From: a virus
Lineage: Duplodnaviria; Caudoviricetes
Length of the DNA: 33,072 bases
Virus record (IMG/VR): IMGVR_UViG_3300033514_000261
Span: 1 to 33,072 of that record
Reading direction: 5' to 3' (one strand)
In this document: positions 34 through 24,009 of the stretch, one piece after another
How the letters are laid out: every line of letters begins with the position of its first letter
Numbering within the stretch: position 1 is the stretch's first letter
Notes under the pieces: model-generated
What the model was told of the DNA's origin: nothing
Databases searched by the model: none
The model's input: only the letters and a program-made list of their open reading frames with translations
Program-made: the position numbers and the translations under genes

Positions 34-1239
34 ATGGAAAAACAAATTATTCTATCTGAGACTTCTGCTAATGGAGAAGAATCAGAGCCACCGGTTGCTC
101 AGAAACCAAATGTCTTTAATAGACAAACCGAAGATGATAAGGTTATAGAATTCATCACAAACAACTACCCAAACACAACAATAGAACAATGGAACTCATG
201 GCAGTGGCAAGTAAAGAATAGTATTACCAAGTCAGATGATTTAATTAATATATTAGGGAAAAAAAGAGAAAATATAATTCTCAATATTCCAGAAAACCAC
301 TTACCTTTTAGAATAACACCTTACTTTGCTTCTTTATTAGATAGATTAGAAAGTAATCATCCATTGTACAAAACAATTATTCCAACTTTAAATGAATTAG
401 ATGTTTATGAAGGAGAATCACCAGATTCTTTAAATGAAGAACATAGTTCACCAGTTAAGAATATTGTACATAGATATCCAGATAGAGCATTATTTTTAGT
501 TACTGCTTTTTGTAGTACATATTGTAGATTTTGTACAAGAAGTTATATGGTAGCTAAACAAAATTCTATTAAAGTATCTCATAAAGATTGGGAAGATGCA
601 TTCAACTATTTAGAAAAACATACTGAAATAAGGGATATTATAGTGTCGGGGGGTGACCCTTTAACATTATCTGATGAACAATTAGAATATATATTAAGTA
701 GATTAAGAAGTATTGAACATATTGAAATCATTAGAATTGGTACAAAGGTTCCTACTGTATTACCTCAAAGAATTACACCAGAATTAGTGAATATGTTAAA
801 AAAATATCATCCACTATATTTAAGTGTACACTTTACTCATCCTGATGAATTCAGTAAAGAAACTAAAAGAGCTTGTAATATGTTAGTTGACAATGGAATA
901 GTATTAAGAAGTCAGACTGTATTATTAAAAGATATAAATGATAATGTAGAAACTATGAAAAAATTAATGCATAATTTATTATTAAATAGAATTGTACCAT
1001 ATTATTTGTATCAGATGGATAAAATTCCAGGTGCTAAGATATTTGAAACTACAATTGATAAGGGTATTGAAATAATAAGAGGGTTGCGTGGATTCACATC
1101 TGGTTATGCAATTCCACAATATATTGTTGATACTGCAATTGGAAAAATGCCAATAAGTCCAAATTACATAAAAGATATAAATGATGGAATTGTTACTTTT
1201 GAAAATTATGAAGGAAAATATATATCACAATATCATTAA
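34..1239 (+). CDS. kamA: KamA-family radical SAM enzyme (lysine 2,3-aminomutase/EpmB-like)
   Basis: CSTYCRFC radical SAM motif preceded by HRYPDR; SGGDPL, RIGTKVP, QTVLLK and PYYLYQ motifs typical of KamA. Confidence 0.9.
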   Translation: MEKQIILSETSANGEESEPPVAQKPNVFNRQTEDDKVIEFITNNYPNTTIEQWNSWQWQVKNSITKSDDLINILGKKRENIILNIPENHLPFRITPYFASLLDRLESNHPLYKTIIPTLNELDVYEGESPDSLNEEHSSPVKNIVHRYPDRALFLVTAFCSTYCRFCTRSYMVAKQNSIKVSHKDWEDAFNYLEKHTEIRDIIVSGGDPLTLSDEQLEYILSRLRSIEHIEIIRIGTKVPTVLPQRITPELVNMLKKYHPLYLSVHFTHPDEFSKETKRACNMLVDNGIVLRSQTVLLKDINDNVETMKKLMHNLLLNRIVPYYLYQMDKIPGAKIFETTIDKGIEIIRGLRGFTSGYAIPQYIVDTAIGKMPISPNYIKDINDGIVTFENYEGKYISQYH

Positions 1240-6575: not shown

Positions 6576-6745
6576 TTAAAGATAAGGCATATAGTTTATA
6601 TTTAAGTAAAATAAAAACAAAATATTGTTATCCTAAAGAAATATTCTTTGAATCACATCCAGATAGATTTCATTATATACAAGAAGTAAAAATAGAACTT
6701 AGAAAAATAAAATTAAAAAAACTTCAAAAAAATTTGGTAGAATGA
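6563..6745 (+). CDS. Hypothetical protein with C-terminal motif
   Basis: Ends ELRKIKLKKLQKNLVE. Confidence 0.7.
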   Translation: MEDVIKDKAYSLYLSKIKTKYCYPKEIFFESHPDRFHYIQEVKIELRKIKLKKLQKNLVE

Positions 6746-6764
6746 AAATCTTGTATTATCTTTG
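6733..6764 (+). promoter_or_regulatory. Bacteroidota-type -33/-7 promoter (representative; also at 7054, 12230, 12485, 14755, 15537, 17767, 18131)
   Basis: TTTG-N19/20-TATCTTTG matches the TTTG/TAnnTTTG consensus of the Bacteroidota primary sigma factor. Confidence 0.85.
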
Positions 6765-6786
6765 TATCATAATTAGAAAATAAATC

Positions 6787-6824
6787 AAAAATGGATAAAA
6801 ATGATATTTTTAATTAAATATATA
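6787..6824 (+). promoter_or_regulatory. Phage-specific promoter-like motif AAAATGG...ATATATA
   Basis: aaaaatggataaaaatgatatttttaattaaatatata closely matches the elements upstream of the capsid and protease genes. Confidence 0.6.
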
Positions 6825-6887
6825 CTTTTATTAAACTTTTGAAAAAACTTTGTATATAAGAATAAAATTAAATAATAAACAAAACAA

Positions 6888-6974
6888 ATGAACTTAAACT
6901 TAAATATAACCTTGAATTCTTCATTAGAGAATACAAATAGTGATACAAAAACACTAATCGGGATTGATATGTAA
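6888..6974 (+). CDS. Putative leader peptide (28 aa)
   Basis: MNLNLNITLNSSLENTNSDTKTLIGIDM with A-rich leader, directly upstream of a terminator. Confidence 0.6.
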   Translation: MNLNLNITLNSSLENTNSDTKTLIGIDM

Positions 6975-6993
6975 ATAAGTCATACATAATATC

Positions 6994-7030
6994 AAAAACC
7001 CGGTTTGAAAAAATCGGGTTTTTTGTTTTT
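6994..7030 (+). terminator. Intrinsic terminator (candidate attenuator)
   Basis: aaaaacccggttt/aaatcgggttttt hairpin plus T-run. Confidence 0.8.
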
Positions 7031-7307
7031 ATAAAAAGTTTTTTGAAAATAAATTTGGTGGAGTCGAAAATAACATTTATCTTTGTACTCTATTAAAAAG
7101 GAAAAAGTTCCTTGACATGTTGGACTATTAAAAATAAGTAAATTTATTTTATAATAAAATGTAGCATTGGTAGTATGCATCATCTAAGGAGTGAATCGTA
7201 CCAAGTAGATTTAAAAACATTACGGTAATAGTAGTGTAAATAGTAGAAATTGGACAAATATGGATTCTTTGGTGTAACAACACATTATTATAAAATATAT
7301 TGAAAAT

Positions 7308-7505: not shown

Positions 7506-7579
7506 GCTCGGTTCGTCTAGCTGGTCAGGACGTCAGGTTTTCATCCTGGAGATCAGGGGTTCGAACCCCCTACCGAGTG
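7506..7579 (+). tRNA. trnE: tRNA-Glu(TTC)
   Basis: gctcggt/accgagt; tcagg-ttTTCat-cctgg; GTTCGAA T loop. Confidence 0.92.
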
Positions 7580-7580
7580 C

Positions 7581-7705
7581 AATTATTATAACAGTGAGAA
7601 GTATTGGTTCGACTCCAAGGTGGGCCGTATCGGATGGCGAAGTAATTCTAAGTGTATTCCCGATATGACGTACCCCAATCCAGGAAGGTATGGATTATAA
7701 TAATT
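7581..7705 (+). ncRNA. Unassigned structured RNA with a T-arm-like hairpin
   Basis: 11-bp closing stem aattattataa/ttataataatt; ttgg-ttcgact-ccaa; gtatcgg/ccgatat. Confidence 0.5.
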
Positions 7706-7711
7706 ACAAAT

Positions 7712-7783
7712 GCTCGGTTCATATAACGGCCAGTATAAATGGTTTTCATCCATTAAATAGGAGTTCGATTCTCCTACCGAGTA
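7712..7783 (+). tRNA. trnE: tRNA-Glu(TTC), second copy
   Basis: gctcggt/accgagt; aatgg-ttTTCat-ccatt. Confidence 0.9.
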
Positions 7784-7802
7784 CTAAGTTTTCAAAATAT
7801 AT

Positions 7803-7891
7803 TGCGGGGTGGAGAAGTTGGTTATCTCACCTGTCTCATAAGCACGGAGTCCCCTATAAGGTTTACACTGGTTCGAATCCAGTTCCCGCAA
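7803..7891 (+). tRNA. trnM: tRNA-Met(CAT), initiator-like body, atypical
   Basis: tgcgggg/tcccgca; ctCATaa loop; bulged anticodon stem and long variable region. Confidence 0.75.
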
Positions 7892-7919
7892 CTAAATAAT
7901 TTTTAACCTAAAATTATGT

Positions 7920-8207
7920 ATGAATTATTTTAATAATGTATTAATTAATGAACAGATATTCAATGGGTGGGATGCAGATATTATTTTAAATGACCAAAAA
8001 ATTGCAATATTATGGAATGGTAAATGGCATTATAAAAAAATTAAAAAAGAACATTCTGTTGAACAAGTACAAAATAGAGATAAAATTAAAATAAAAGAAA
8101 TTAAAAAATTAGGATATACACCATATATTATTAAAGATATGGGTAAATTTAATAAAGAATTTGTTGAAAATGAATTTGAGAAATTAAAAATTATAATGGG
8201 GGTGTAG
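7920..8207 (+). CDS. Truncated Vsr/DUF559-like PD-(D/E)xK endonuclease
   Basis: DADIIL..IAILWNGKWHY..RDKIK..LGY; appears to lack an N-terminal region. Confidence 0.55.
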   Translation: MNYFNNVLINEQIFNGWDADIILNDQKIAILWNGKWHYKKIKKEHSVEQVQNRDKIKIKEIKKLGYTPYIIKDMGKFNKEFVENEFEKLKIIMGV

Positions 8208-8286
8208 CTGATCAGGTTTAGCTGCAGACTGTTAATCTGTGAATGAAAATATTGAAATAAAGTAGGTTCGAATCCTTCCTCCCCCG
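8198..8286 (+). tRNA. trnN: tRNA-Asn(GTT) with enlarged variable region
   Basis: gcaga-ctGTTaa-tctgt; GGTTCGAATCC; about 21-nt variable region. Confidence 0.75.
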
Positions 8287-8292
8287 CAAACT

Positions 8293-8375
8293 GGATGTAT
8301 GATTAAGGTGTAAAAACTTTAAAAATCTTTAAGTTGGTTTGATCACCAAAATAGGTTAAAATCCTATTACATTCT
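8293..8375 (+). pseudogene. Degenerate tRNA
   Basis: Acceptor ggatgta/tacattc and T arm atagg-ttaaaat-cctat; no clear D or anticodon arm. Confidence 0.5.
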
Positions 8376-8382
8376 TTTAAAT

Positions 8383-8466
8383 ACCCCTATGGTGAAATTT
8401 GGTAGACGCAACGGTTTTAAAAGCCGTCATCCTTTGGATATGCAGGTTCGATGCCTGTTAGGGGTA
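8383..8466 (+). tRNA. trnL: tRNA-Leu(TAA), intronless
   Basis: accccta/taggggt; acggt-ttTAAaa-gccgt; variable arm present. Confidence 0.88.
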
Positions 8467-8541
8467 CAAAATTTTAACTTATTACCCATCGGAAGGTGGG
8501 AAATACATCTGAAAATAATTACGTAATAAAAGCAGATGTTT

Positions 8542-8617
8542 TCCGATATAACTCAGTTGGCTAGAGTACCCTCACAAGCTTTGGGGGATGTCACAGGTTC
8601 GAATCCTGTTATCGGCA
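8542..8617 (+). tRNA. tRNA with non-canonical anticodon arm (isotype undetermined)
   Basis: Good D arm and T arm; anticodon arm ccctca-caagctt-tggggg lacks U33 and purine-37. Confidence 0.6.
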
Positions 8618-8886
8618 CTAGAGTGGTGTAAGGGTAATGGTTAATCCTGGCAGGGATTAGACACTATGTTTATAACAGCTTATTAATTGAAACTGCCAGT
8701 GATATTAGTAAGTACCGGGAAAACCGGCCTCGCGTAATAGGATTTTTCTATTTATCCTAGTCTTAAATAGAATGGTGGTGTAGTTGAAGTAAAATTCAGC
8801 CCCAATCAGTTTTCTTGGCTTCTGGTAAAAAACCAAGATTTTAAAATATTTCAGTTTTCTTGGTTTCTGTCAAAAATCATATTTTT

Positions 8887-8967
8887 AGGGTGTGTGGTGT
8901 AATTGGTTAGCATATTTCCCTGTCACGGAAATGGTATATAAACGGGGTTCGAATCCCCCACATCCTG
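8887..8967 (+). tRNA. trnD: tRNA-Asp(GTC)
   Basis: tttcc-ctGTCac-ggaaa; G73; enlarged variable region. Confidence 0.85.
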
Positions 8968-9007
8968 CAATTCAGTTTTCTTGGTTTCTGTCAAAAATCA
9001 TATTTTT

Positions 9008-9086
9008 AGGGTGTGTGGTGTAATTGGTTAGCATAAAATCCTGTCACGATTTTGGTATTGGGGTTCGAGTCCCCCACATCCTGCCA
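9008..9086 (+). tRNA. trnD: tRNA-Asp(GTC), second copy with encoded CCA
   Basis: aaatc-ctGTCac-gattt; ends acatcct-G-CCA. Confidence 0.9.
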
Positions 9087-16671: not shown

Positions 16672-16893
16672 ATGGCTATACTAAATTTCCTATTTAAAGA
16701 AAAACACACATTTGATGAAAACAATCCTATTGTTGATGTAATAACAATAACAGAAGAATATCAATTATCAGGAAGGAAAGTAGTTAAAAAGATGATTGTT
16801 ACTGGATTTACTTGTACTAAATGTGGTAGAGTATTGTGGGTTGATAAAGAAGATTTAAAAAATGTTTCAGGTGAACAAAAATATTGTAAATAA
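16672..16893 (+). CDS. Small Zn-binding protein
   Basis: Likely start ATG 16672; CTKC motif. Confidence 0.6.
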   Translation: MAILNFLFKEKHTFDENNPIVDVITITEEYQLSGRKVVKKMIVTGFTCTKCGRVLWVDKEDLKNVSGEQKYCK

Positions 16894-16904
16894 AATTAAA
16901 TAAT

Positions 16905-17213
16905 ATGGGATTAAGAGATATAAAGTTTGGACCTGGAAATAATAATTATGGTCGTGATAAAGACTTAAGAGAAAATGATGAAGTTATGAATAAATTGAAA
17001 TCATTTGTTCAAAAAAGTACAATTAAACAATTTCAAGAAGAACTTAACAAATCTAAGGAAGAAAAAAAATCTGATGTTAAAATAGTTCTTGAATTGACTA
17101 AAGAAGAAGCAAAGGGATTGTTAAATTGTCTTGGAAGGACTATGGCTAAAGGTGATAATCTTACTATTGGAATGGAAATAGAAAATAGATTAGTGGAATT
17201 ATTAAAACAATAA
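16905..17213 (+). CDS. Hypothetical protein
   Basis: Operonic ORF. Confidence 0.65.
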   Translation: MGLRDIKFGPGNNNYGRDKDLRENDEVMNKLKSFVQKSTIKQFQEELNKSKEEKKSDVKIVLELTKEEAKGLLNCLGRTMAKGDNLTIGMEIENRLVELLKQ

Positions 17214-17216
17214 AAT

Positions 17217-17369
17217 ATGAAAAATCACAGATTATGTCCACATTGTTCTAATCTTATGTCAGGTTGTAAATATGGTTATAATTTAAAGATTTGTGAACCT
17301 AAATTAATGACTAAAACATTTTGTCCAATATGTTATAATATAAAAGGAAATTGTTCTTGTAAAAAATAA
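17217..17369 (+). CDS. 50-aa Cys-rich protein (not in ORF track)
   Basis: MKNHRLCPHC...CPIC...CSCKK; fills the gap between ORFs. Confidence 0.55.
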   Translation: MKNHRLCPHCSNLMSGCKYGYNLKICEPKLMTKTFCPICYNIKGNCSCKK

Positions 17370-17595: not shown

Positions 17596-17741
17596 AAGAT
17601 TTCTGAAAATAAATTACAAAAAATTTGGAAAATAAATTAAACTTTTGTAATTTTGTATCCTAAATTAAAAACATCTTCTGAAAAAAGATAAGGTTCTTTA
17701 AAATGTTGAGTTAAATAGTTGAAGATTAAACAACTAAAAAG

Positions 17742-18172
17742 TTTTTTGAAAATAGTTCTCAAAAAATTTGGAAAATGAAAAAAGATGTTGTATCTTTGTA
17801 AAACAATTAGTTCTTTAAAATTATGAATATTAAGTAGTAATACTTAATCTACAAACATTAAGTTTGCAACCTCTAGGAATCGGTATGTTGCAGATGTAAG
17901 TATGCCACACTGAAACAAGACGCTGAAAGCCGATATATAGCCAAGTAAGGTGGTTTGGAGAGATATACCATAATTTTGAAATATGGTCTGAACGAATCCA
18001 TTGGGAGATTCAAAGATGATGAAAATTGTCTTCCTTTAAATAGGTACAAGTAAGGTTCAAATCCTAACCAGATCGCAAACAGTTGATAGTTAAACAACTG
18101 AAAGATTTTTTGAAAATAGTTCTCAAAAAATTTGGAAAATGAAAAAAGATGTTGTATCTTTGTAAAACAATT
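17742..18172 (+). repeat. 67-bp exact direct repeat containing a promoter (17742-17808 and 18106-18172)
   Basis: ttttttgaaaatagttctcaaaaaatttgg...tgtatctttgtaaaacaatt occurs twice. Confidence 0.9.
17985..18075 (+). ncRNA. tRNA-like element without a canonical anticodon
   Basis: ggtctg/cagatc acceptor, gaatc/gattc D arm, ggttcaaatcc T arm. Confidence 0.55.
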
Positions 18173-18509
18173 GGAAGATAAAATGTCTGATTGAAAAAAG
18201 AAAAAAGTTCTTAAAAATTTTGAAAATAATTTAAACTTTTATATCTTTATATAATATATAAACTCACCACCTAAAAATGGTGAAAAAAATAAAGAGAAAA
18301 AAGTTACAAAAAAATTGGAAATTAGAAAAAACTTTTGTATCTTTGTAGAATATAAAATTAGTTCTTTAAAATATTGGGATAAAATTAGAGCGAAAGCGAA
18401 GAAGAGTAAAGTAAACTGTTCTCTGTCTGAAAATAGGGTCAAGGTTTGTGAAAATCTTGTGAAAATATCAGATATAAAATCACTGATACGGATGTTGATG
18501 ATGATTATT

Positions 18510-19196
18510 TGAAACCGCAGGAAGTAAGTTAAGTTATCATATAAGTATGGTAATGTTTACCTGAAAGGGTAAAGTGGTTGAAACCAAAGGAAGTAAAGCG
18601 AGATTTGAAACTGCAAGGAGTAAATAAATGAAACTGGAAGGAGTAAAGTTTTTGAAATCAAGGAGAGTAAAGTTACTGAAATTGTAGGTTGTTTGTTTTT
18701 GAAACCGTAGAGAGTAGTAAAGTTGTTATACTCAGTATAACAATGTTTATCTGAAAAGATAAGGTGGTCGAAACCGTAGGGAGTAAAGTTACAAACATTA
18801 CAATGTAAGTTTTTGAAATCAAGGAGAGTAAAACAGTTGAAATCGCAGGGAGTAAAAGGATTGAAATCGCAGGGAGTAAAAGGATTGAAATCAAGGGAAG
18901 TAGGGAAACTGAAACCAAGGAGAGTAAAAGGATTGAAACCACAGAAAGTAAAAGGATTGAAATCGTAGGGAGTAAAAGGATTGAAATTGAAAGGAGTAAG
19001 GAAACTGAAACTGAAAAGAGTAAAAGGATTGAAACCGAAGAAAGTAAAAGGATTGAAACTGTAAGGAGTAAAAGGATTGAAATCAAGGGAAGTAAGGAAA
19101 CTGAAACCAAGGATAGTAAAAGGATTGAAACTGCAAGGAGTAAAAGGATTGAAACCGAAGAAAGTAAACAACAGTATTGAAATTCGTAGTAAGTAA
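18510..19196 (+). repeat. Array of about 24 TGAAA-N8-AGTA units; strict 24-nt period from 18814 to 19167
   Basis: e.g. tgaaa-tcgcaggg-agtaaaaggat, tgaaa-ccaaggag-agtaaaaggat, tgaaa-ctgcaagg-agtaaaaggat. Confidence 0.92.
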
Positions 19197-19214
19197 CTCT
19201 TTTTTATCTTATAT

Positions 19215-19381
19215 GGCCCGGTCGTCTAGCGGACAAAAATTATAACGAGGACTTTATGTGTTACTCAGTAGGATATAAAGTAGTTATAAAGGACAAAGCA
19301 AACCATTGATATGTATGGAAATACAAGGAGGTTGAGAAAAATTGTAAAAGCTTTACATAGGTTCGAATCCTTTCCGGGCTA
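19215..19381 (+). ncRNA. 167-nt tRNA-like RNA with large inserts in the D and anticodon loops
   Basis: ggcccgg/ccgggct acceptor; gtc..gac D stem; aaagc/gcttt stem; ggttcgaatcc T arm. Confidence 0.7.
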
Positions 19382-19382
19382 C

Positions 19383-19419
19383 AAAATGGAAAAAAGTGAG
19401 TTTTTTGTATGAATATATA
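19383..19419 (+). promoter_or_regulatory. Phage-specific promoter-like motif
   Basis: aaaatggaaaaaagtgagttttttgtatgaatatata resembles the capsid and protease upstream elements. Confidence 0.6.
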
Positions 19420-19444
19420 CATTCACCCACTTTTGGAAAAATAT

Positions 19445-19677
19445 TGTTCTTTGAAGATAGTTTGTTATAGGGATATAACATTAGTATGTAGGAGTGGCTA
19501 ATTCGTAAGGTAACGAGATACCTCTGGTAATTCTTAGGTCAGAAAAGGCGCTTGAAATCGACAACTGTTGGGTCCTAATGGGGAAAGTACATCAAGGTGT
19601 ATTTTGAAAAACCGAGAAATTGGTGTGTAGTTGCACCCTCTACTCGAACAGATATGCATAACTATCTTGAAAGAACA
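19445..19677 (+). ncRNA. Unassigned structured RNA domain, about 233 nt
   Basis: 17/18-bp closing stem tgttctttgaagatagtt/aactatcttgaaagaaca; interior richer in GC than the surroundings. Confidence 0.55.
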
Positions 19678-19689
19678 TCGTTCTTTGAT

Positions 19690-20659
19690 AATATTGAAAA
19701 GATAATATATGGTTCTAATCCTTATAGACCTTACCTGAAAGGGTAAAAGTTTGGGGATGAAACGCAAGAGTTGAACCTAAGTAGTATTAATCATCGTGTG
19801 TGATGATATCTTTCTTCGGAAAGAGCAAATAATGTAGGGTAACTTACAAAAGGGGGAGTCTCTCAACTTCCCACCAGGTCTTCGGATTTGGTTATAGCAC
19901 ACAAACTTCGTCTTTGTTGGCTACTAGTCAACAGATTCATCCGTAAGGACTGGATATAAGGAGTAAGTAATGAGTACATGGTTCTTTGGTAAGAATAAGT
20001 CTTGTAAGCCCCCAGTAATGGGTAAGGAGCAAGATGAATAAGGGGTGACACCCGCACCATTGCGTGTCAACATTATGAATTTGAAAGATAAGAAGTAGGT
20101 AATCTGTCAGAGTGTGGATAGCACAAAGGCTAATTATCAATACAAATGGTGAAAGGAGAAGTCCTGGAATCGTGAAGTATGGTACAGTAGGAATAATCAA
20201 CCGAAACGCATGTTTAGTTAAGTATTTTGTATGCCAAAATCTTATGAAGCTTTGTCTGAGCGCTAAACCGAGACCCTGATATTAGGGTTAAAATATCAAC
20301 TATCTTAAAAATTAATATGATAATTAAAATTTGATAAAAAGCAAAGACTCAGACAAGTATATGACGAAAGTCGTTTAAGTCTTGACATCTTCGGATGAAT
20401 CAAGATCATGGAAACTCGCAAGGTAGAAGTGTTTTATGGAAAGAAGCATCTAAGGGGTTAGCGCCTCTGAATGGCTCGCAAGGTCAAGAGAATTTTGAAC
20501 ATAGAGTAATCATATACTGATAGTGGAAAAGCTACCACTTAAAATAAAGCAACGTCGCTGATAGACTTCCATGAGGAAGTGGATAAGTGTAGAACCTTGG
20601 CCGCAAACTAAGGGTAATGACACGAAGGTATCGGTACTAAACCTGTAATCTCAAGGTTT
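19690..20659 (+). ncRNA. GOLLD-like giant RNA, copy 1 (5' end approximate)
   Basis: No credible ORF; many GNRA/UUCG hairpins; 3' domain gagta..gtggataag..acgaagg..aaacct-gtaatctca-aggttt resembles GOLLD as recalled; tRNA-cluster context. Confidence 0.7.
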
Positions 20660-20665
20660 TAAAAT

Positions 20666-20749
20666 AGTTCAGTCGTCTATTTTGGAGTACTTAATTTAAG
20701 TCAAGACACAATAACAATTGGAGATATGGTTCAAAACCTATCTGAACTG
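20666..20749 (+). ncRNA. tRNA-like element
   Basis: agttcag/ctgaact acceptor; gtct/agac D stem with inserted hairpin; minimal anticodon arm; ggttcaaaacc. Confidence 0.55.
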
Positions 20750-20947
20750 CAAAATCTGATACGTCCTAGTAACCTTGTGAAGTAGGTCATAGTCTTACGG
20801 TTATCATACCTACTTGACAATTTGGTAAATTAGATTTAGTAGTGAGTGAATCTGCTTTACGAAAATTCACCCTCTAAGAACATCATTCACTCTTAGGTTG
20901 ATGGTTGAAATGGGTAAGGAATACCATACATTCCAATAAAAACCACT

Positions 20948-21092
20948 ATGTTTAAAACCCCTTAAAAGGTATAGTAGTAATTTGTAATCAAGTAGCTCAG
21001 TGTTGAGAGCGGTCGAAAGACAGGTCAGTGGTTCAGCGCCATTCTTGAAAACAAATAATTATGTTTAAAACCCTTCAGAAAGGTATAGTAGT
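20948..21092 (+). repeat. About 31-bp direct repeat flanking a tRNA-like element
   Basis: tatgtttaaaacccc..aaaggtatagtagt at about 20948 and 21060. Confidence 0.75.
20986..21050 (+). ncRNA. tRNA-like element with a GAAA tetraloop replacing the anticodon loop
   Basis: tagctcag..gagc D arm; gtc-GAAA-gac; agtgg-ttcagcg-ccatt; tcaag/cttga. Confidence 0.65.
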
Positions 21093-21114
21093 GGTTTGTT
21101 TTGATTGTTCTTTG

Positions 21115-22022
21115 AATAATGATATTTCCTATGCTTGAATAGGAATCCGTAAGGAAGAGATAATATATCGCAAGATATAAAAAGGATAGACATCCATTTG
21201 TTTATTCACCTTAAATCCCAATTTAAGGCCAAATCAAGCAACTCCTTGCTCACCTTTACTGAAAAAGGGTTTCTCTTCGGAGGAAATAAGAGGAAGATAA
21301 GTTTTTAGGAACTTTGGAAAGTATGGAATTTCTTACTTGCCTGTAAAGGGAACAAGGGAAATTTAATAAGAACTGTGGTGGTTCACATCCTAGAATACCA
21401 ACCTTATCGTCTCAGAATTGTAAAAGGAAGATAGTAAAATAGTCCAAGTGATGCAAAAGTAAGGGCGACTATCAGTATTAAGGTTTTGAAAAGAATCTGA
21501 AATACCGCACAAGTAGGTTTAGCAGACTGAAAATGTAAGCTAAGGGTCGGATTTTGTTCTTCAAAAGAGAATGAAACGGTGAACAGGCACTTAGTAATGG
21601 AAAAAACAAGATTAGCTCAGTTGGCAGAGCGATTGGCTTCTAACCAATAGGTCATAGGTTCAAATCCTATAATTTGTAAAAAAGCGAAGTCCTGTTCAAC
21701 ATCAGTAAGAAAAGACGCTTAATTCTTGACATCTTCGGATGAATCAAGAGCAACTGAAACTCGCAAGGTGGATGTTGTTTGATGGAAAATCACACTTAGG
21801 GATTAATTATCTCGAACTGTCCGCAAGATAGGAGGCCGATTGAACATCGAGTAGTACTGGTGGTAATAAAGTTAGTCAATCTTTAAAATGGCAGCGTTGC
21901 TTGGCTAGACTATGATTGAAGGGAAACCTTGATTATAGTGGATAAGTAAAGAAAATAAAGAGTAGCATCTTTATGATAATGTTACGAAGGTGTCAAGTGA
22001 AAACCAGTAGTCTCATGGTTTT
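21115..22022 (+). ncRNA. GOLLD-like giant RNA, copy 2, with embedded tRNA (5' end approximate)
   Basis: 3' domain homologous to copy 1 (26-nt identity at 20380-20405 and 21724-21749); ends aaaacca-gtagtctca-tggtttt. Confidence 0.72.
21606..21678 (+). tRNA. trnR: tRNA-Arg(TCT) embedded in the GOLLD-like RNA
   Basis: attgg-ctTCTaa-ccaat; canonical D and T arms; weak acceptor stem. Confidence 0.8.
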
Positions 22023-22029
22023 AAATTTT

Positions 22030-22066
22030 AAACCCCTTAATCTTCCGAGGATTAAGGGGTTTTTTG
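22030..22066. terminator. Intrinsic terminator between convergent units
   Basis: aaaccccttaatc/gattaaggggttt plus T-run. Confidence 0.88.
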
Positions 22067-22843
22067 TTATTTTAAAGTTTTAATTCTTTCTGTTTGATAT
22101 TTCATTATATCAATATCTTTATTTTCTTTTAATATATTAATAATTTTAATAAACATATCAGTCATAATCCTACAATCAGTAAGGGCATCATGATAATTTA
22201 TCATACTTATATTAAGAGCAGGTCCAATCTTTGACATTGAAGAACTTATTAATCCAAAATCTCTTTCAGATGTTCCTATTGTTTCAATCATTTTTTTATA
22301 ATCTTCATCTGTTTCTGCTAATTTTTGTATTAGTGGAATATAATATAATTGAATGATTTGTTTAGTGTCTATTACTTCTTTTTCATATTTCCTACCATAT
22401 CTACCATTTAACATATTCATATCAAATGCAGCATTCTGAATGACAAATAAAGGGTTATTTTGCTCATCTATCCAACCATAAAATTCATCCAATACCATTT
22501 GTTCATCATAATATTTAGTGTCTTTTGTTCCATAGTGATTAAATGATAATACTTTTTTAATTCTTGAACCGGGTTCATTCATTTTTACTTTAGTTTCATC
22601 AGTTAATTTTATCTTTTTATTAAAAGAATCCTTTTCTGTGAAATCATTTGAATTAAAATTATAAATATTTGATATTGCAGATACTTGAGTTAATTGTTGT
22701 TTTTTATGTCCACCTAATCCAGTAGTTTCAGTATCAATAAATATCCAATCATTAACTGATTTACTTTCAATCCAATTTAAAAATTGATTAATAGATTTAT
22801 ACCATAATTTATGTTCAAGTAAAAAATCAGTATATTTAATCAT
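22067..22843 (-). CDS. DEDDh 3'-5' exonuclease (DnaQ-like)
   Basis: FIDTETTG, QNAAFD and YHDALTD; likely start ATG 22843 (MIKYTDFLLE). Confidence 0.85.
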   Translation of the reverse strand: MIKYTDFLLEHKLWYKSINQFLNWIESKSVNDWIFIDTETTGLGGHKKQQLTQVSAISNIYNFNSNDFTEKDSFNKKIKLTDETKVKMNEPGSRIKKVLSFNHYGTKDTKYYDEQMVLDEFYGWIDEQNNPLFVIQNAAFDMNMLNGRYGRKYEKEVIDTKQIIQLYYIPLIQKLAETDEDYKKMIETIGTSERDFGLISSSMSKIGPALNISMINYHDALTDCRIMTDMFIKIINILKENKDIDIMKYQTERIKTLK

Positions 22844-22902
22844 TGATAAATCTTTTTTCTTTATATATAAAAACTTTTTAATTATTTTATATAATAAATA
22901 GT

Positions 22903-24009
22903 ATGATAAATAATAAAACAATATGTCTTTGTTTAATAGTCAAGAATGAAGCTAAAGTAATTCATAGACTAATTAGGAGTTGTAAACATATCATAGATTA
23001 CTATGTAATATGTGATACAGGTTCAAGTGATAATACTATTGAAGTAATTAAAAAAGAAATGGGTGATGTTAAAGGTGAAATTCATGAAAGAAAATGGATT
23101 GGATTTGATGTTAACCGTACTGAATTAATGGAATTTGCATATAAGAAATCTGATTATCTTCTTATTGCTGATGCTGATGAAGAATTTCTAATTACTGATG
23201 ATTTTTATAAAGAAGATTTCACTTATGATTGGTATCATTTTAGATATGTAGGTGAGATGGATTATACAAGAATTCATTTAGTAAATGCTAATTTAAAATG
23301 GGTATATAAAGGCAAATTACATGAATATATTGATTCTGATGAATGTGGTGAAAGTTCAGAACTTAGTTCAATTACTACATTACATCATGATGATGGTAGC
23401 TCTATGTTAAGAGAAGATAAAATAAAAAGAGATATTGAAATATTAAAAAAAGCAATAATCAGTGAACCAAAAAATGAAAGGAATTATTTTTATCTTGGAC
23501 AAACATATTCAGATAATAAAGAGTATCAAAAGGCTATCATATATTATGAAAAAAGGGTGGAATTAGGTGGATGGGAAGAAGAAGTATATTATTCTATGTT
23601 TAAAATAGGAATTATGCATTATTATCTTAAAAATATAAATACAGCTATTATAAAATTATTAGAAGCTTATTCATATAGACCATCAAGATTTGAAACACTT
23701 TATATGTTAGGTATAATATATAGGGAACAAAATAAATATCATTTAGCTAGATTATTTCAAGTAGAATTATTAAATATGAAATATCCAAGTACTGATATAT
23801 TATTTATTGATAGAACAAGTAGGGATTATCTATCTGATTATGAACTTGCAATTTGTTATTATTGGATGGGTGATTATGAAACTGCTAAAGTTCATGCATT
23901 GGTAATAAAAAATAAGAAAGATGTACCGGAAGATATAGTTGAACAAAATGAAAAAAATTATAATTTTATAATAGATAAAATAGAAGAAATAAAAAAGGGT
24001 TCTCAATGA
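22903..24009 (+). CDS. Glycosyltransferase family 2 with TPR domain
   Basis: CLIVKNE, CDTGSSDNT, DADE and LHE; C-terminal TPR-like YFYLGQTY repeats. Confidence 0.88.
   Translation: MINNKTICLCLIVKNEAKVIHRLIRSCKHIIDYYVICDTGSSDNTIEVIKKEMGDVKGEIHERKWIGFDVNRTELMEFAYKKSDYLLIADADEEFLITDDFYKEDFTYDWYHFRYVGEMDYTRIHLVNANLKWVYKGKLHEYIDSDECGESSELSSITTLHHDDGSSMLREDKIKRDIEILKKAIISEPKNERNYFYLGQTYSDNKEYQKAIIYYEKRVELGGWEEEVYYSMFKIGIMHYYLKNINTAIIKLLEAYSYRPSRFETLYMLGIIYREQNKYHLARLFQVELLNMKYPSTDILFIDRTSRDYLSDYELAICYYWMGDYETAKVHALVIKNKKDVPEDIVEQNEKNYNFIIDKIEEIKKGSQ

What the first reader, a model, noticed from the sequence alone, without database searches (positions are those of the whole stretch)
17620..22066. 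4.4-kb protein-free RNA locus organised like an rRNA operon
Seen: no credible CDS. Four stacked host-type promoters (about 17624, 17767, 18131, 18314) and boxA-like GTTCTTT(A/G)A motifs (about 17693, 17810, 18361, 19446, 19680, 21107) precede a repeat array, four tRNA-like elements, an unknown 233-nt domain and two giant RNAs, ending at one strong terminator. Known: boxA directs Nus-dependent antitermination of untranslated rRNA transcripts. Inference: an antiterminated polycistronic ncRNA precursor cut into modules at the tRNA-like elements. This is the best candidate here for an undescribed RNA-based system.
Basis: partly seen in the sequence, partly recalled or inferred. Interest (0 to 1): 0.9.

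Follow-up and report, generated by a model that had tools for sequence, protein, structure and literature searches.

The report
Phage RNA operon with sarcin-ricin array
A likely giant phage carries a 4.4-kb stretch without a credible protein gene, present in environmental RNA libraries, that holds two copies of the known GOLLD RNA plus an RNA I could not find described, made of about 24 repeated hairpins predicted to copy the ribosome's sarcin-ricin motif; it is likely transcribed and cut like ribosomal RNA, and the repeats possibly act as a protein decoy.

Summary
The locus is real. It has no credible CDS, four host-type promoters, six boxA-like sites and one terminator. Contigs from RNA libraries of three studies cover its modules but not the flanking genes. 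The two 'giant RNAs' are known: both are GOLLD, and the second holds tRNA-Arg in its linker. A boxA-like site sits about one GOLLD length upstream of the 3' end in 13 of 17 other GOLLD loci. This scan has noted rRNA-style GOLLD leaders before on other DNA. New here: (1) an 800-nt array RNA of about 24 AGUA/GAA (sarcin-ricin-type) hairpins, with two divergent homologous arrays and a covarying closing pair (54 of 57 pair); (2) two divergent GOLLDs in tandem, where 17 other GOLLD-bearing records showed one each; (3) a tRNA-shaped family with a replaced anticodon loop, six copies on three contigs. A single precursor, antitermination and processing are inferred, not shown. The array's function is untested; a multivalent protein decoy is my lead.

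The parts
17624..17655 (+). Promoter-like site P1 (Bacteroidetes type)
17693..17701 (+). boxA-like site 1
17767..17798 (+). Promoter-like site P2; lies in a 96-nt block 93% identical to the block holding P3
17810..17818 (+). boxA-like site 2
17985..18075 (+). tRNA-shaped element 1 (acceptor 6 of 7 pairs, 10-nt loop in place of the anticodon loop)
   Evidence: expression not shown
18131..18162 (+). Promoter-like site P3
18315..18345 (+). Promoter-like site P4 (relaxed match), likely start of the array RNA
   Evidence: RNA contigs begin at 18388 and 18396
18361..18369 (+). boxA-like site 3
18391..19195 (+). Array RNA: about 24 units UGAAA-N7-RAGUA-linker, predicted tandem bulged-G (sarcin-ricin type) hairpins capped by 2 bp and a loop
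   Evidence: homologs L140, L141; RNA contigs in 4 of 4 runs laid
19215..19381 (+). tRNA-shaped element 2: D-loop hairpin insertion, anticodon loop replaced by a hairpin plus invariant AAAAAUUGUAAAA; family of 6 copies on 3 contigs
19446..19454 (+). boxA-like site 4
19455..19670 (+). Unassigned domain closed by an 8-bp terminal helix; structure not supported
   Evidence: searches (z -0.61; one 23-nt hit in 17 records), low-depth RNA contigs in 3 of 4 runs
19680..19688 (+). boxA-like site 5, before GOLLD-1
19730..20657 (+). GOLLD-1 (5' end approximate); Rfam 3' domain 20212-20657, 164 bits
20666..20749 (+). tRNA-shaped element 3, 9 nt after GOLLD-1; acceptor 7 of 7, anticodon arm reduced to a short hairpin
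   Evidence: sequence
20986..21051 (+). tRNA-shaped element 4; anticodon arm is a 3-bp GAAA hairpin; acceptor 5 of 7
   Evidence: sequence
21107..21115 (+). boxA-like site 6, before GOLLD-2
21140..22019 (+). GOLLD-2 (5' end approximate); Rfam 3' domain 21539-22019, 129 bits, E 4.8e-34
21606..21678 (+). tRNA-Arg(TCT) embedded in the variable linker of GOLLD-2
22030..22072 (+). Intrinsic-terminator-like hairpin (15 pairs) with T tail

Best explanation
This is a stable-RNA locus of a likely Bacteroidota-infecting huge phage, likely transcribed by host polymerase under boxA/Nus antitermination and likely cut at its tRNA-shaped elements, which would release two GOLLD RNAs and an array RNA whose ~24 predicted sarcin-ricin-type hairpins likely serve as repeated binding sites (a sponge or decoy) for a protein. 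Shown: the sequence anatomy, GOLLD identity, presence of the modules in RNA libraries, positional conservation of the boxA-like site, conservation and covariation of the array unit. Inferred: one precursor from P4 (about 0.7), Nus loading (about 0.75), RNase P cutting at element 3 to free the GOLLD-1 3' end (about 0.65), the bulged-G fold (about 0.75), and the sponge role (about 0.4).
For: RNA contigs from 4 runs, 3 studies, cover the array and both GOLLDs, with zero cover at 16853-17354 and 22375-23600 in 4 of 4. One contig runs 19494-19742 across boxA-like site 5. GOLLD-2 contigs start at 21140-21143 in 4 of 4 runs. No promoter pattern between 18345 and the terminator and no other + terminator. 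boxA-like site 808-964 nt before the GOLLD 3' end in 13 of 17 loci, 10 of 14 after merging near-duplicates. The same motif lies 45-94 nt before a recalled 23S 5' anchor in 120 genome loci and 0 of 120 at 125-250 nt; 67 of the 80 listed titles are Bacteroidota. boxA precedes 16S and 23S and loads NusB:S10 (PMC13753749, passages). A tRNA or tRNA-like element starts 10-18 nt after GOLLD in 5 of 17 loci by script and in 2 more by eye. Array: 22, 30 and 7 modules in window, L141 and L140 against shuffle means 0.40, 0.65, 0.06, none on the reverse strand. Closing pair AGUA-A-X...X'-U-GAA pairs in 54 of 57 linkers, 9 as G-C, Fisher p 2e-7, 3e-4 on 43 distinct linkers; the other register gives 42 of 57 and no G-C. 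In 28 equal-length modules 55 of 56 cells pair, 8 double changes, 0 of 500 shuffles. AGUA/GAA is the sarcin-ricin signature (PMC1865062, passages).
Against: No listed contig spans the locus, contigs give neither strand nor ends, and one of the four runs is only guessed to be RNA. The RNA-versus-DNA control rests on the two short flanks alone. The array folds no better than shuffles (z +0.28): 2-bp hairpins need tertiary packing or protein. Units within an array are not independent, AGUA was fixed by the parser, and one search used 28 of 59 linkers. The second pair seen in the window (22 of 22 Watson-Crick) holds in L140 (6 of 6) but not in L141 (2 Watson-Crick plus 3 G-U of 12). Only 11 of 26 four-nt loops are GNRA; 10 are AGGA. 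The ribosomal loop has one pair under its tetraloop (recalled), these units have two. PMC13085918 (passages) warns that the motif occurs in many RNAs with no link to toxins. boxA-like site absent in 4 of 17 GOLLD loci; no tRNA-like element after GOLLD in 10 of 17. Phage sites match the host motif for only about 9 nt, and that scan selected for the motif. No binding partner was identified.
Confidence: 0.55

Rival explanations
1. Same operon, but the array RNA is a protein-free structural polymer: the repeated hairpins pack on each other or on the GOLLD cages (filament, solenoid or condensate scaffold).
For: It sits beside GOLLD, a family that forms RNA-only cages (PMC12286853, section 7). GNRA loops cap 11 of 26 short units. 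Short natural RNAs can form filaments by a repeated motif (bioRxiv 10.64898/2026.07.01.735769, abstract only). Weak Watson-Crick folding implies packing.
Against: Linker and inner lengths vary widely in L141 and L140, from 3 to over 30 nt, which suits independent binding sites better than a lattice. Copy number ranges from 7 to at least 31. The array is absent from 17 other GOLLD loci.
Confidence: 0.25
2. The modules are separate transcripts from promoters I did not recognise, each with its own boxA; the tRNA-like elements are end products (tRNA decoys), not processing marks.
For: Each module has its own boxA-like site. Modules are shuffled among phages; L134 has three copies of the element-2 family in a tRNA cluster away from its GOLLD. 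The invariant AAAAAUUGUAAAA in element 2 suggests a role beyond a cut site.
Against: No promoter pattern between 18345 and 22066, no internal terminator, and RNA contigs cover the spacers, one across boxA-like site 5. rRNA operons also repeat boxA internally.
Confidence: 0.15
3. The array works as DNA (iteron-like or protein-binding repeats) and its RNA is read-through.
For: 24-bp period in the 3' half. Y-GNA-R triplets resemble stable DNA mini-hairpins (recalled).
Against: Spacing is not kept in L141 or L140. The covarying pair and GNRA loops are single-strand RNA features. In the window and L141 the array lies on one strand downstream of promoter-like and boxA-like sites.
Confidence: 0.06
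4. The array is a CsrB-like sponge whose active sites are GGA motifs.
For: GGA in 20 of 24 window units and 4 of 7 in L140.
Against: Only 9 of 31 units in L141; the invariant positions are AGUA and GAA, not GGA.
Confidence: 0.05
5. The array encodes an 8-residue repeat protein.
For: One + frame is open for 123 codons over 18809-19177; 19 of 23 window unit lengths are multiples of three.
Against: That frame has no ATG, GTG or TTG. In L141 unit lengths fall 13/8/9 over the three phases and the longest open + frame is 41 codons.
Confidence: 0.02

Closest known systems
GOLLD RNA (Rfam RF02032)
   Same: Two matches to the conserved 3' domain; about 900 nt each; phage tRNA region; tRNA in the variable linker of one copy, as reported for other GOLLDs (PMC12286853, PMC12990946, passages).
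   Different: Two divergent copies in tandem (59% identical overall); 17 other GOLLD-bearing records gave one match each, though most are fragments.
Bacterial rrn operon with boxA / Nus antitermination
   Same: Stacked promoters, leader boxA, internal boxA before each large RNA, spacer tRNA shapes, one terminator; same 9-mer as before 23S in Bacteroidota.
   Different: Cargo is not rRNA; no leader-trailer helix enclosing the locus or a GOLLD was found; antitermination untested.
Sarcin-ricin / bulged-G / loop E motif; Dictyoglomi-1 RNA (RF01703)
   Same: AGUA opposite GAA, hairpin cap on the AGUA-3' side as in 23S helix 95; Dictyoglomi-1 has four such motifs (PMC13085918, passages).
   Different: 7 to at least 31 copies in a simple tandem chain, two pairs under the loop, no long helices; no Rfam match.
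Repeat-array decoy RNAs: CsrB/RsmZ and phage pseudo-ToxI arrays (both recalled)
   Same: An RNA built of short repeated units with variable copy number.
   Different: Unit is a non-canonical internal-loop motif, not a GGA loop or a pseudoknot; no Rfam match; partner unknown.
Phage T4 species 1 and 2 RNAs (rnaC, rnaD)
   Same: tRNA-framed stable RNAs without a normal anticodon arm in a phage tRNA region (annotation, sequence).
   Different: They lack the AAAAAUUGUAAAA block of element 2 (read by eye); similar kind, not the same family.

Membership tests
GOLLD RNA | Conserved 3' domain matching RF02032 above the gathering score (GOLLD-1) | tested here: met
   164.4 bits against 150, full model length
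GOLLD RNA | Conserved 3' domain matching RF02032 above the gathering score (GOLLD-2) | tested here: inconclusive
   129.1 bits, under 150, but E 4.8e-34 over the full model with a 73-nt tRNA inserted; falls among GOLLDs in the tree
GOLLD RNA | Variable 5' domain giving about 800-900 nt in all | tested here: met
   RNA contigs from 19730 and 21140; GOLLD-1 77% identical to the L006 GOLLD over 692 nt
GOLLD RNA | Self-assembly into a nanocage | not testable with these tools
   needs cryo-EM or SEC
rrn-type boxA antitermination | boxA-like motif shortly after a promoter or before a large untranslated RNA | tested here: met
rrn-type boxA antitermination | Same motif at the boxA position of rRNA operons in the likely host phylum | tested here: met
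   only the pre-23S position, anchor recalled and not checked by Rfam, scan selected for the motif
rrn-type boxA antitermination | Leader-trailer processing helix | tested here: not met
   no enclosing helix among seeds of 10 nt or more
rrn-type boxA antitermination | NusB:S10 binding and read-through of Rho termination | not testable with these tools
   needs biochemistry
Sarcin-ricin / bulged-G motif | AGUA opposite GAA next to a Watson-Crick stem | tested here: met
   stem is only 2 bp
Sarcin-ricin / bulged-G motif | Non-canonical pairs and base triple in 3D | not testable with these tools
   needs probing or structure
Ribosomal sarcin-ricin loop (23S helix 95) exact mimic | One C-G pair and a GAGA loop above the motif (recalled) | tested here: not met
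   two pairs; loops GAAA 8, AGGA 10, other 8 of 26, none GAGA
CsrB/RsmZ sRNA | GGA motif conserved in each unit | tested here: not met
   9 of 31 units in L141; no Rfam match
Type III antitoxin / pseudo-ToxI array | Match to an antitoxin RNA family; pseudoknot-forming repeats | tested here: inconclusive
   no Rfam match at E up to 1; pseudoknot not modelled
Canonical tRNA (elements 1-4) | Cloverleaf with a 7-nt anticodon loop | tested here: not met
   not called by ARAGORN or Rfam in the window; arm replaced or reduced

The most novel reading that the evidence does not exclude
The array is a phage-made polymer of ribosome mimics: dozens of sarcin-ricin-like hairpins, offset by one base pair so that they bind but are not cut, which soak up a host ribosome-targeting defence toxin or a translational GTPase during infection. 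It is co-produced with two different GOLLD cages, one carrying a tRNA, as an RNA-only counter-defence kit.
Probability: 0.2. Interest if true: 0.92.

Novelty: new variant of a known kind. Interest (0 to 1): 0.72.

Why it matters
GOLLD RNAs have solved cage structures but no known function or biogenesis. This locus gives testable handles: a conserved boxA-like site, tRNA-shaped cut marks, and a natural pair of divergent GOLLDs that could form mixed or separate cages. The array RNA would be a repeat RNA built from a single 3D motif, with 7 to over 30 copies against four in Dictyoglomi-1. If it titrates a ribosome-binding protein or toxin, it would be a new route of phage counter-defence or translation control, and a simple pull-down could show it.

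Tried and rejected
Array searches that found nothing usable: viral scans gave 0, or chance and coding repeats (95 loci, screened; 2, read; 1, read). GTDB genome scan 0. Array pattern in 0 of 37 related records, 0 of 5 huge-phage genomes, 0 of 13 GOLLD records. Five genomes behind Bacteroidota-titled loci gave 7 hits against 5 for the backwards control; I did not read those loci. No INPHARED match to the window array, only E 0.3 hits for L141. Of 7 metagenome loci I dropped 4 (L135, L136, L137, L139) as unrelated short or other tandem repeats; L138 is 99% identical to the window and not independent. GOLLD was in 2 of 37 related records and 2 of 5 huge-phage genomes, so it is patchy in this clade. 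17857-18358 (P2 module, element 1) had no cover in 4 of 4 runs; that proves nothing either way. Contig depths were not used to rank expression. The sigma-70 promoter scan was at chance (47 against 43). No leader-trailer helix. The complement of the invariant 13-mer of element 2 does not occur in the window with up to 1 mismatch; all 6 matches are same-strand. A fifth weak tRNA-like hit at 19621-19732 (5 of 7) was dropped as chance. A T-loop pair reading of the unit (recalled motif) was set aside because AGUA/GAA explains all invariant positions.
Full report
Context. The window is a 33-kb virus record on its own. It encodes T4-like portal, head protease and major head proteins. The head protein is 61% identical to that of the 735-kb phage LR756501 and 51-53% to three 634-642-kb phages. 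PMC7162821 (passages) places genomes of those sizes in the Mahaphage clade with predicted Bacteroidetes hosts. The promoter pattern is the Bacteroidetes type (consensus recalled; 10 matches against 1.5). Genome size and host are therefore inferred.

Observation. Three promoters match exactly and the fourth (18315) matches a relaxed pattern. All six boxA-like sites are present on + (9 in the window against 1.6). One terminator closes the locus. The 8 ORFs of 60 aa or more are mostly antisense TTG frames; I did not search them for homologs. Rfam identifies the two giant RNAs as GOLLD: 20212-20657 at 164 bits and 21539-22019 at 129 bits, with tRNA-Arg(TCT) at 21606-21678 inside the second. Nothing else in the locus matches Rfam at E up to 1.

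Expression. Twenty-one runs were listed, 20 on record as RNA; I laid 4, from 3 studies. Contigs cover the array in 4 of 4 runs (from 18388 and 18396 in two; a variant array in a third study), GOLLD-1 in 4 of 4 (from 19730 at the earliest) and GOLLD-2 in 4 of 4 (starting at 21140-21143; ending at 22013 and 22017 in two). Low-depth contigs cover 19404-19742 and 20763-21097, one crossing boxA-like site 5. Bins 16853-17354 and 22375-23600 are empty in 4 of 4, which argues against DNA carry-over. Limits: these are contigs, so no strand, ends or levels; no listed contig spans the locus; the table was cut; one run is only guessed to be RNA; a wider control over the structural genes was not obtained.

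rRNA-like layout. I gathered 17 other GOLLD loci. A GYTCTTTRA site lies 808-964 nt before the GOLLD 3' end in 13 of 17, or 10 of 14 after merging near-duplicates; it is absent in L150, L155, L156 and L161. The same 9-mer, or its A variant, lies 45-94 nt before a recalled 23S 5' anchor in 120 genome loci and never at 125-250 nt; 67 of the 80 listed titles are Bacteroidota. That scan selected for the motif, so it shows position and not frequency. boxA precedes 16S and 23S and loads NusB:S10 (PMC13753749, passages). Element 3 starts 9 nt after GOLLD-1 with a perfect 7-bp acceptor and a reduced anticodon arm. A tRNA or tRNA-like element follows GOLLD at 10-18 nt in 5 of 17 loci by script and in L144 and L149 by eye; the other 10 have none. 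RNase P cutting there would free the GOLLD 3' end; this is inference by analogy with tRNA punctuation (recalled). No enclosing leader-trailer helix was found. Earlier notes of this scan describe boxA-led GOLLD loci and tRNA bookends on other DNA, so this part is a repeat within the scan.

Two GOLLDs. The copies are 59% identical overall and 67% in the 3' part. GOLLD-1 is closest to the L006/L154 GOLLD (80%; support 85/87), and GOLLD-2 is unresolved within the same clade. They are not a recent duplication. Each of 17 other GOLLD-bearing records gave one match, but most are fragments. L138, 99% identical to the window, has both. tRNAs in the GOLLD linker are published (PMC12286853, passages and section 7; PMC12990946, passages).

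The array RNA. 18391-19195 is a chain of units UGAAA-N7-RAGUA-linker. The single metagenome scan gave 7 loci: one near-identical strain, four unrelated repeats that I dropped, and two divergent arrays. L141 has at least 31 units, runs off its contig, and lies downstream of four tRNAs, two boxA-like sites and stacked promoter-like sites. L140 has 7 units followed by a terminator-like hairpin. Whether these two contigs are phage is not shown. Module counts are 22, 30 and 7 against shuffle means of 0.40, 0.65 and 0.06. Over 62 units the core is TGAAA in 58. The two bases after AGUA pair with the two before the next GAA: the inner pair forms in 54 of 57 linkers, 42 A-U, 9 G-C and 3 G-U, with G and C co-occurring (Fisher p 2e-7; 3e-4 on 43 distinct linkers), while the alternative register gives 42 of 57 and no G-C. 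On 28 equal-length modules, 55 of 56 cells pair with 8 double changes, 0 of 500 shuffles, and slid controls fall to 50% or less. AGUA opposite GAA is the sarcin-ricin signature (PMC1865062, passages), and the cap is on the same side as in the ribosomal loop (recalled). Against: no thermodynamic signal (z +0.28); repeats are not independent; a second pair that is perfect in the window (22 of 22) and L140 (6 of 6) fails in L141 (5 of 12 with G-U); only 11 of 26 short loops are GNRA and none is GAGA; two pairs lie under the loop where the ribosome has one. Coding is rejected by L141 (longest open frame 41 codons) although the window has a startless 123-codon frame. GGA is not conserved (9 of 31 in L141). 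The family is rare: see Tried and rejected for the negative scans.

tRNA-shaped family. Element 2 has five relatives: two flanking the L006 GOLLD and three in tandem in L134. All six keep 7 of 7 acceptor pairs with four different acceptor sequences and a 4-bp NAGC/GCUN stem in which N takes all four values with its partner. They carry a 28-112-nt D-loop insertion and an invariant AAAAAUUGUAAAA in a much enlarged loop. T4 rnaC and rnaD are of a similar kind but lack that block.

Mechanism. Most likely host polymerase starts at the stacked promoters, reloads Nus factors at each boxA, and reads to 22070; host tRNA-processing enzymes cut at the tRNA shapes; GOLLD-1, GOLLD-2 and the array RNA accumulate. 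The array's variable spacing and copy number fit independent binding sites, so I favour a protein sponge (about 0.4) over an RNA-only scaffold (about 0.25). Nothing here identifies the partner, and PMC13085918 (passages) notes that the motif need have no link to toxins.

Novelty. I found no description of the array, of tandem GOLLDs or of boxA before GOLLD in ten searches (listings, plus passages of six papers and one abstract). The library lacks most subscription papers. I did not read the original GOLLD papers or any supplements, which may annotate these features. The closest published case of repeated motifs that I saw is Dictyoglomi-1 with four. Verdict: a new variant of a known kind of locus, carrying one RNA family that appears undescribed. 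Interest 0.72.

Noticed in passing
window 6733-7125: A second leader: two promoter-like sites (6733, 7054) and a boxA-like site with one mismatch near 7105 that continues like the host motif, before the tRNA cluster at 7506-9086.
   Followed up: no
window 6890-7030; L134 3940-4090; L141 790-965: A short leader with a tiny ORF-like start followed by an AAAACCC...GGGTTTTT terminator hairpin precedes tRNA clusters in three loci, like an attenuator.
   Followed up: no
window 20945-20978 and 21058-21092: A 34-nt element occurs twice, after tRNA-like element 3's spacer and after element 4; similar GTT...AAAACC hairpins follow GOLLD in L151 and L163.
   Followed up: no
window 17830-17985: Hairpin-rich stretch before element 1 that also holds UGAAA and AAGUAA words inside a closing stem.
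   Followed up: partly
L149 722-800 and 1916-1995 (LR745206): Identical tRNA-shaped RNAs with a hairpin in place of the anticodon arm lie on both sides of the GOLLD, with a third variant downstream.
   Followed up: partly
window 8850-9086: Tandem duplication of a tRNA-Asp gene with its upstream spacer.
   Followed up: no
window 13815, 15523, 31691: Three further boxA-like sites outside the locus, all on +.
   Followed up: no
L006 10200-12580: A transposon-like pair of ORFs (resolvase-like and TnpB-like by eye) interrupts the region upstream of the GOLLD locus.
   Followed up: no
window 34-1239 and 1700-2575: Radical SAM protein with lysine 2,3-aminomutase C-terminal match, and an R2K-clade ATP-grasp protein.
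   Followed up: no
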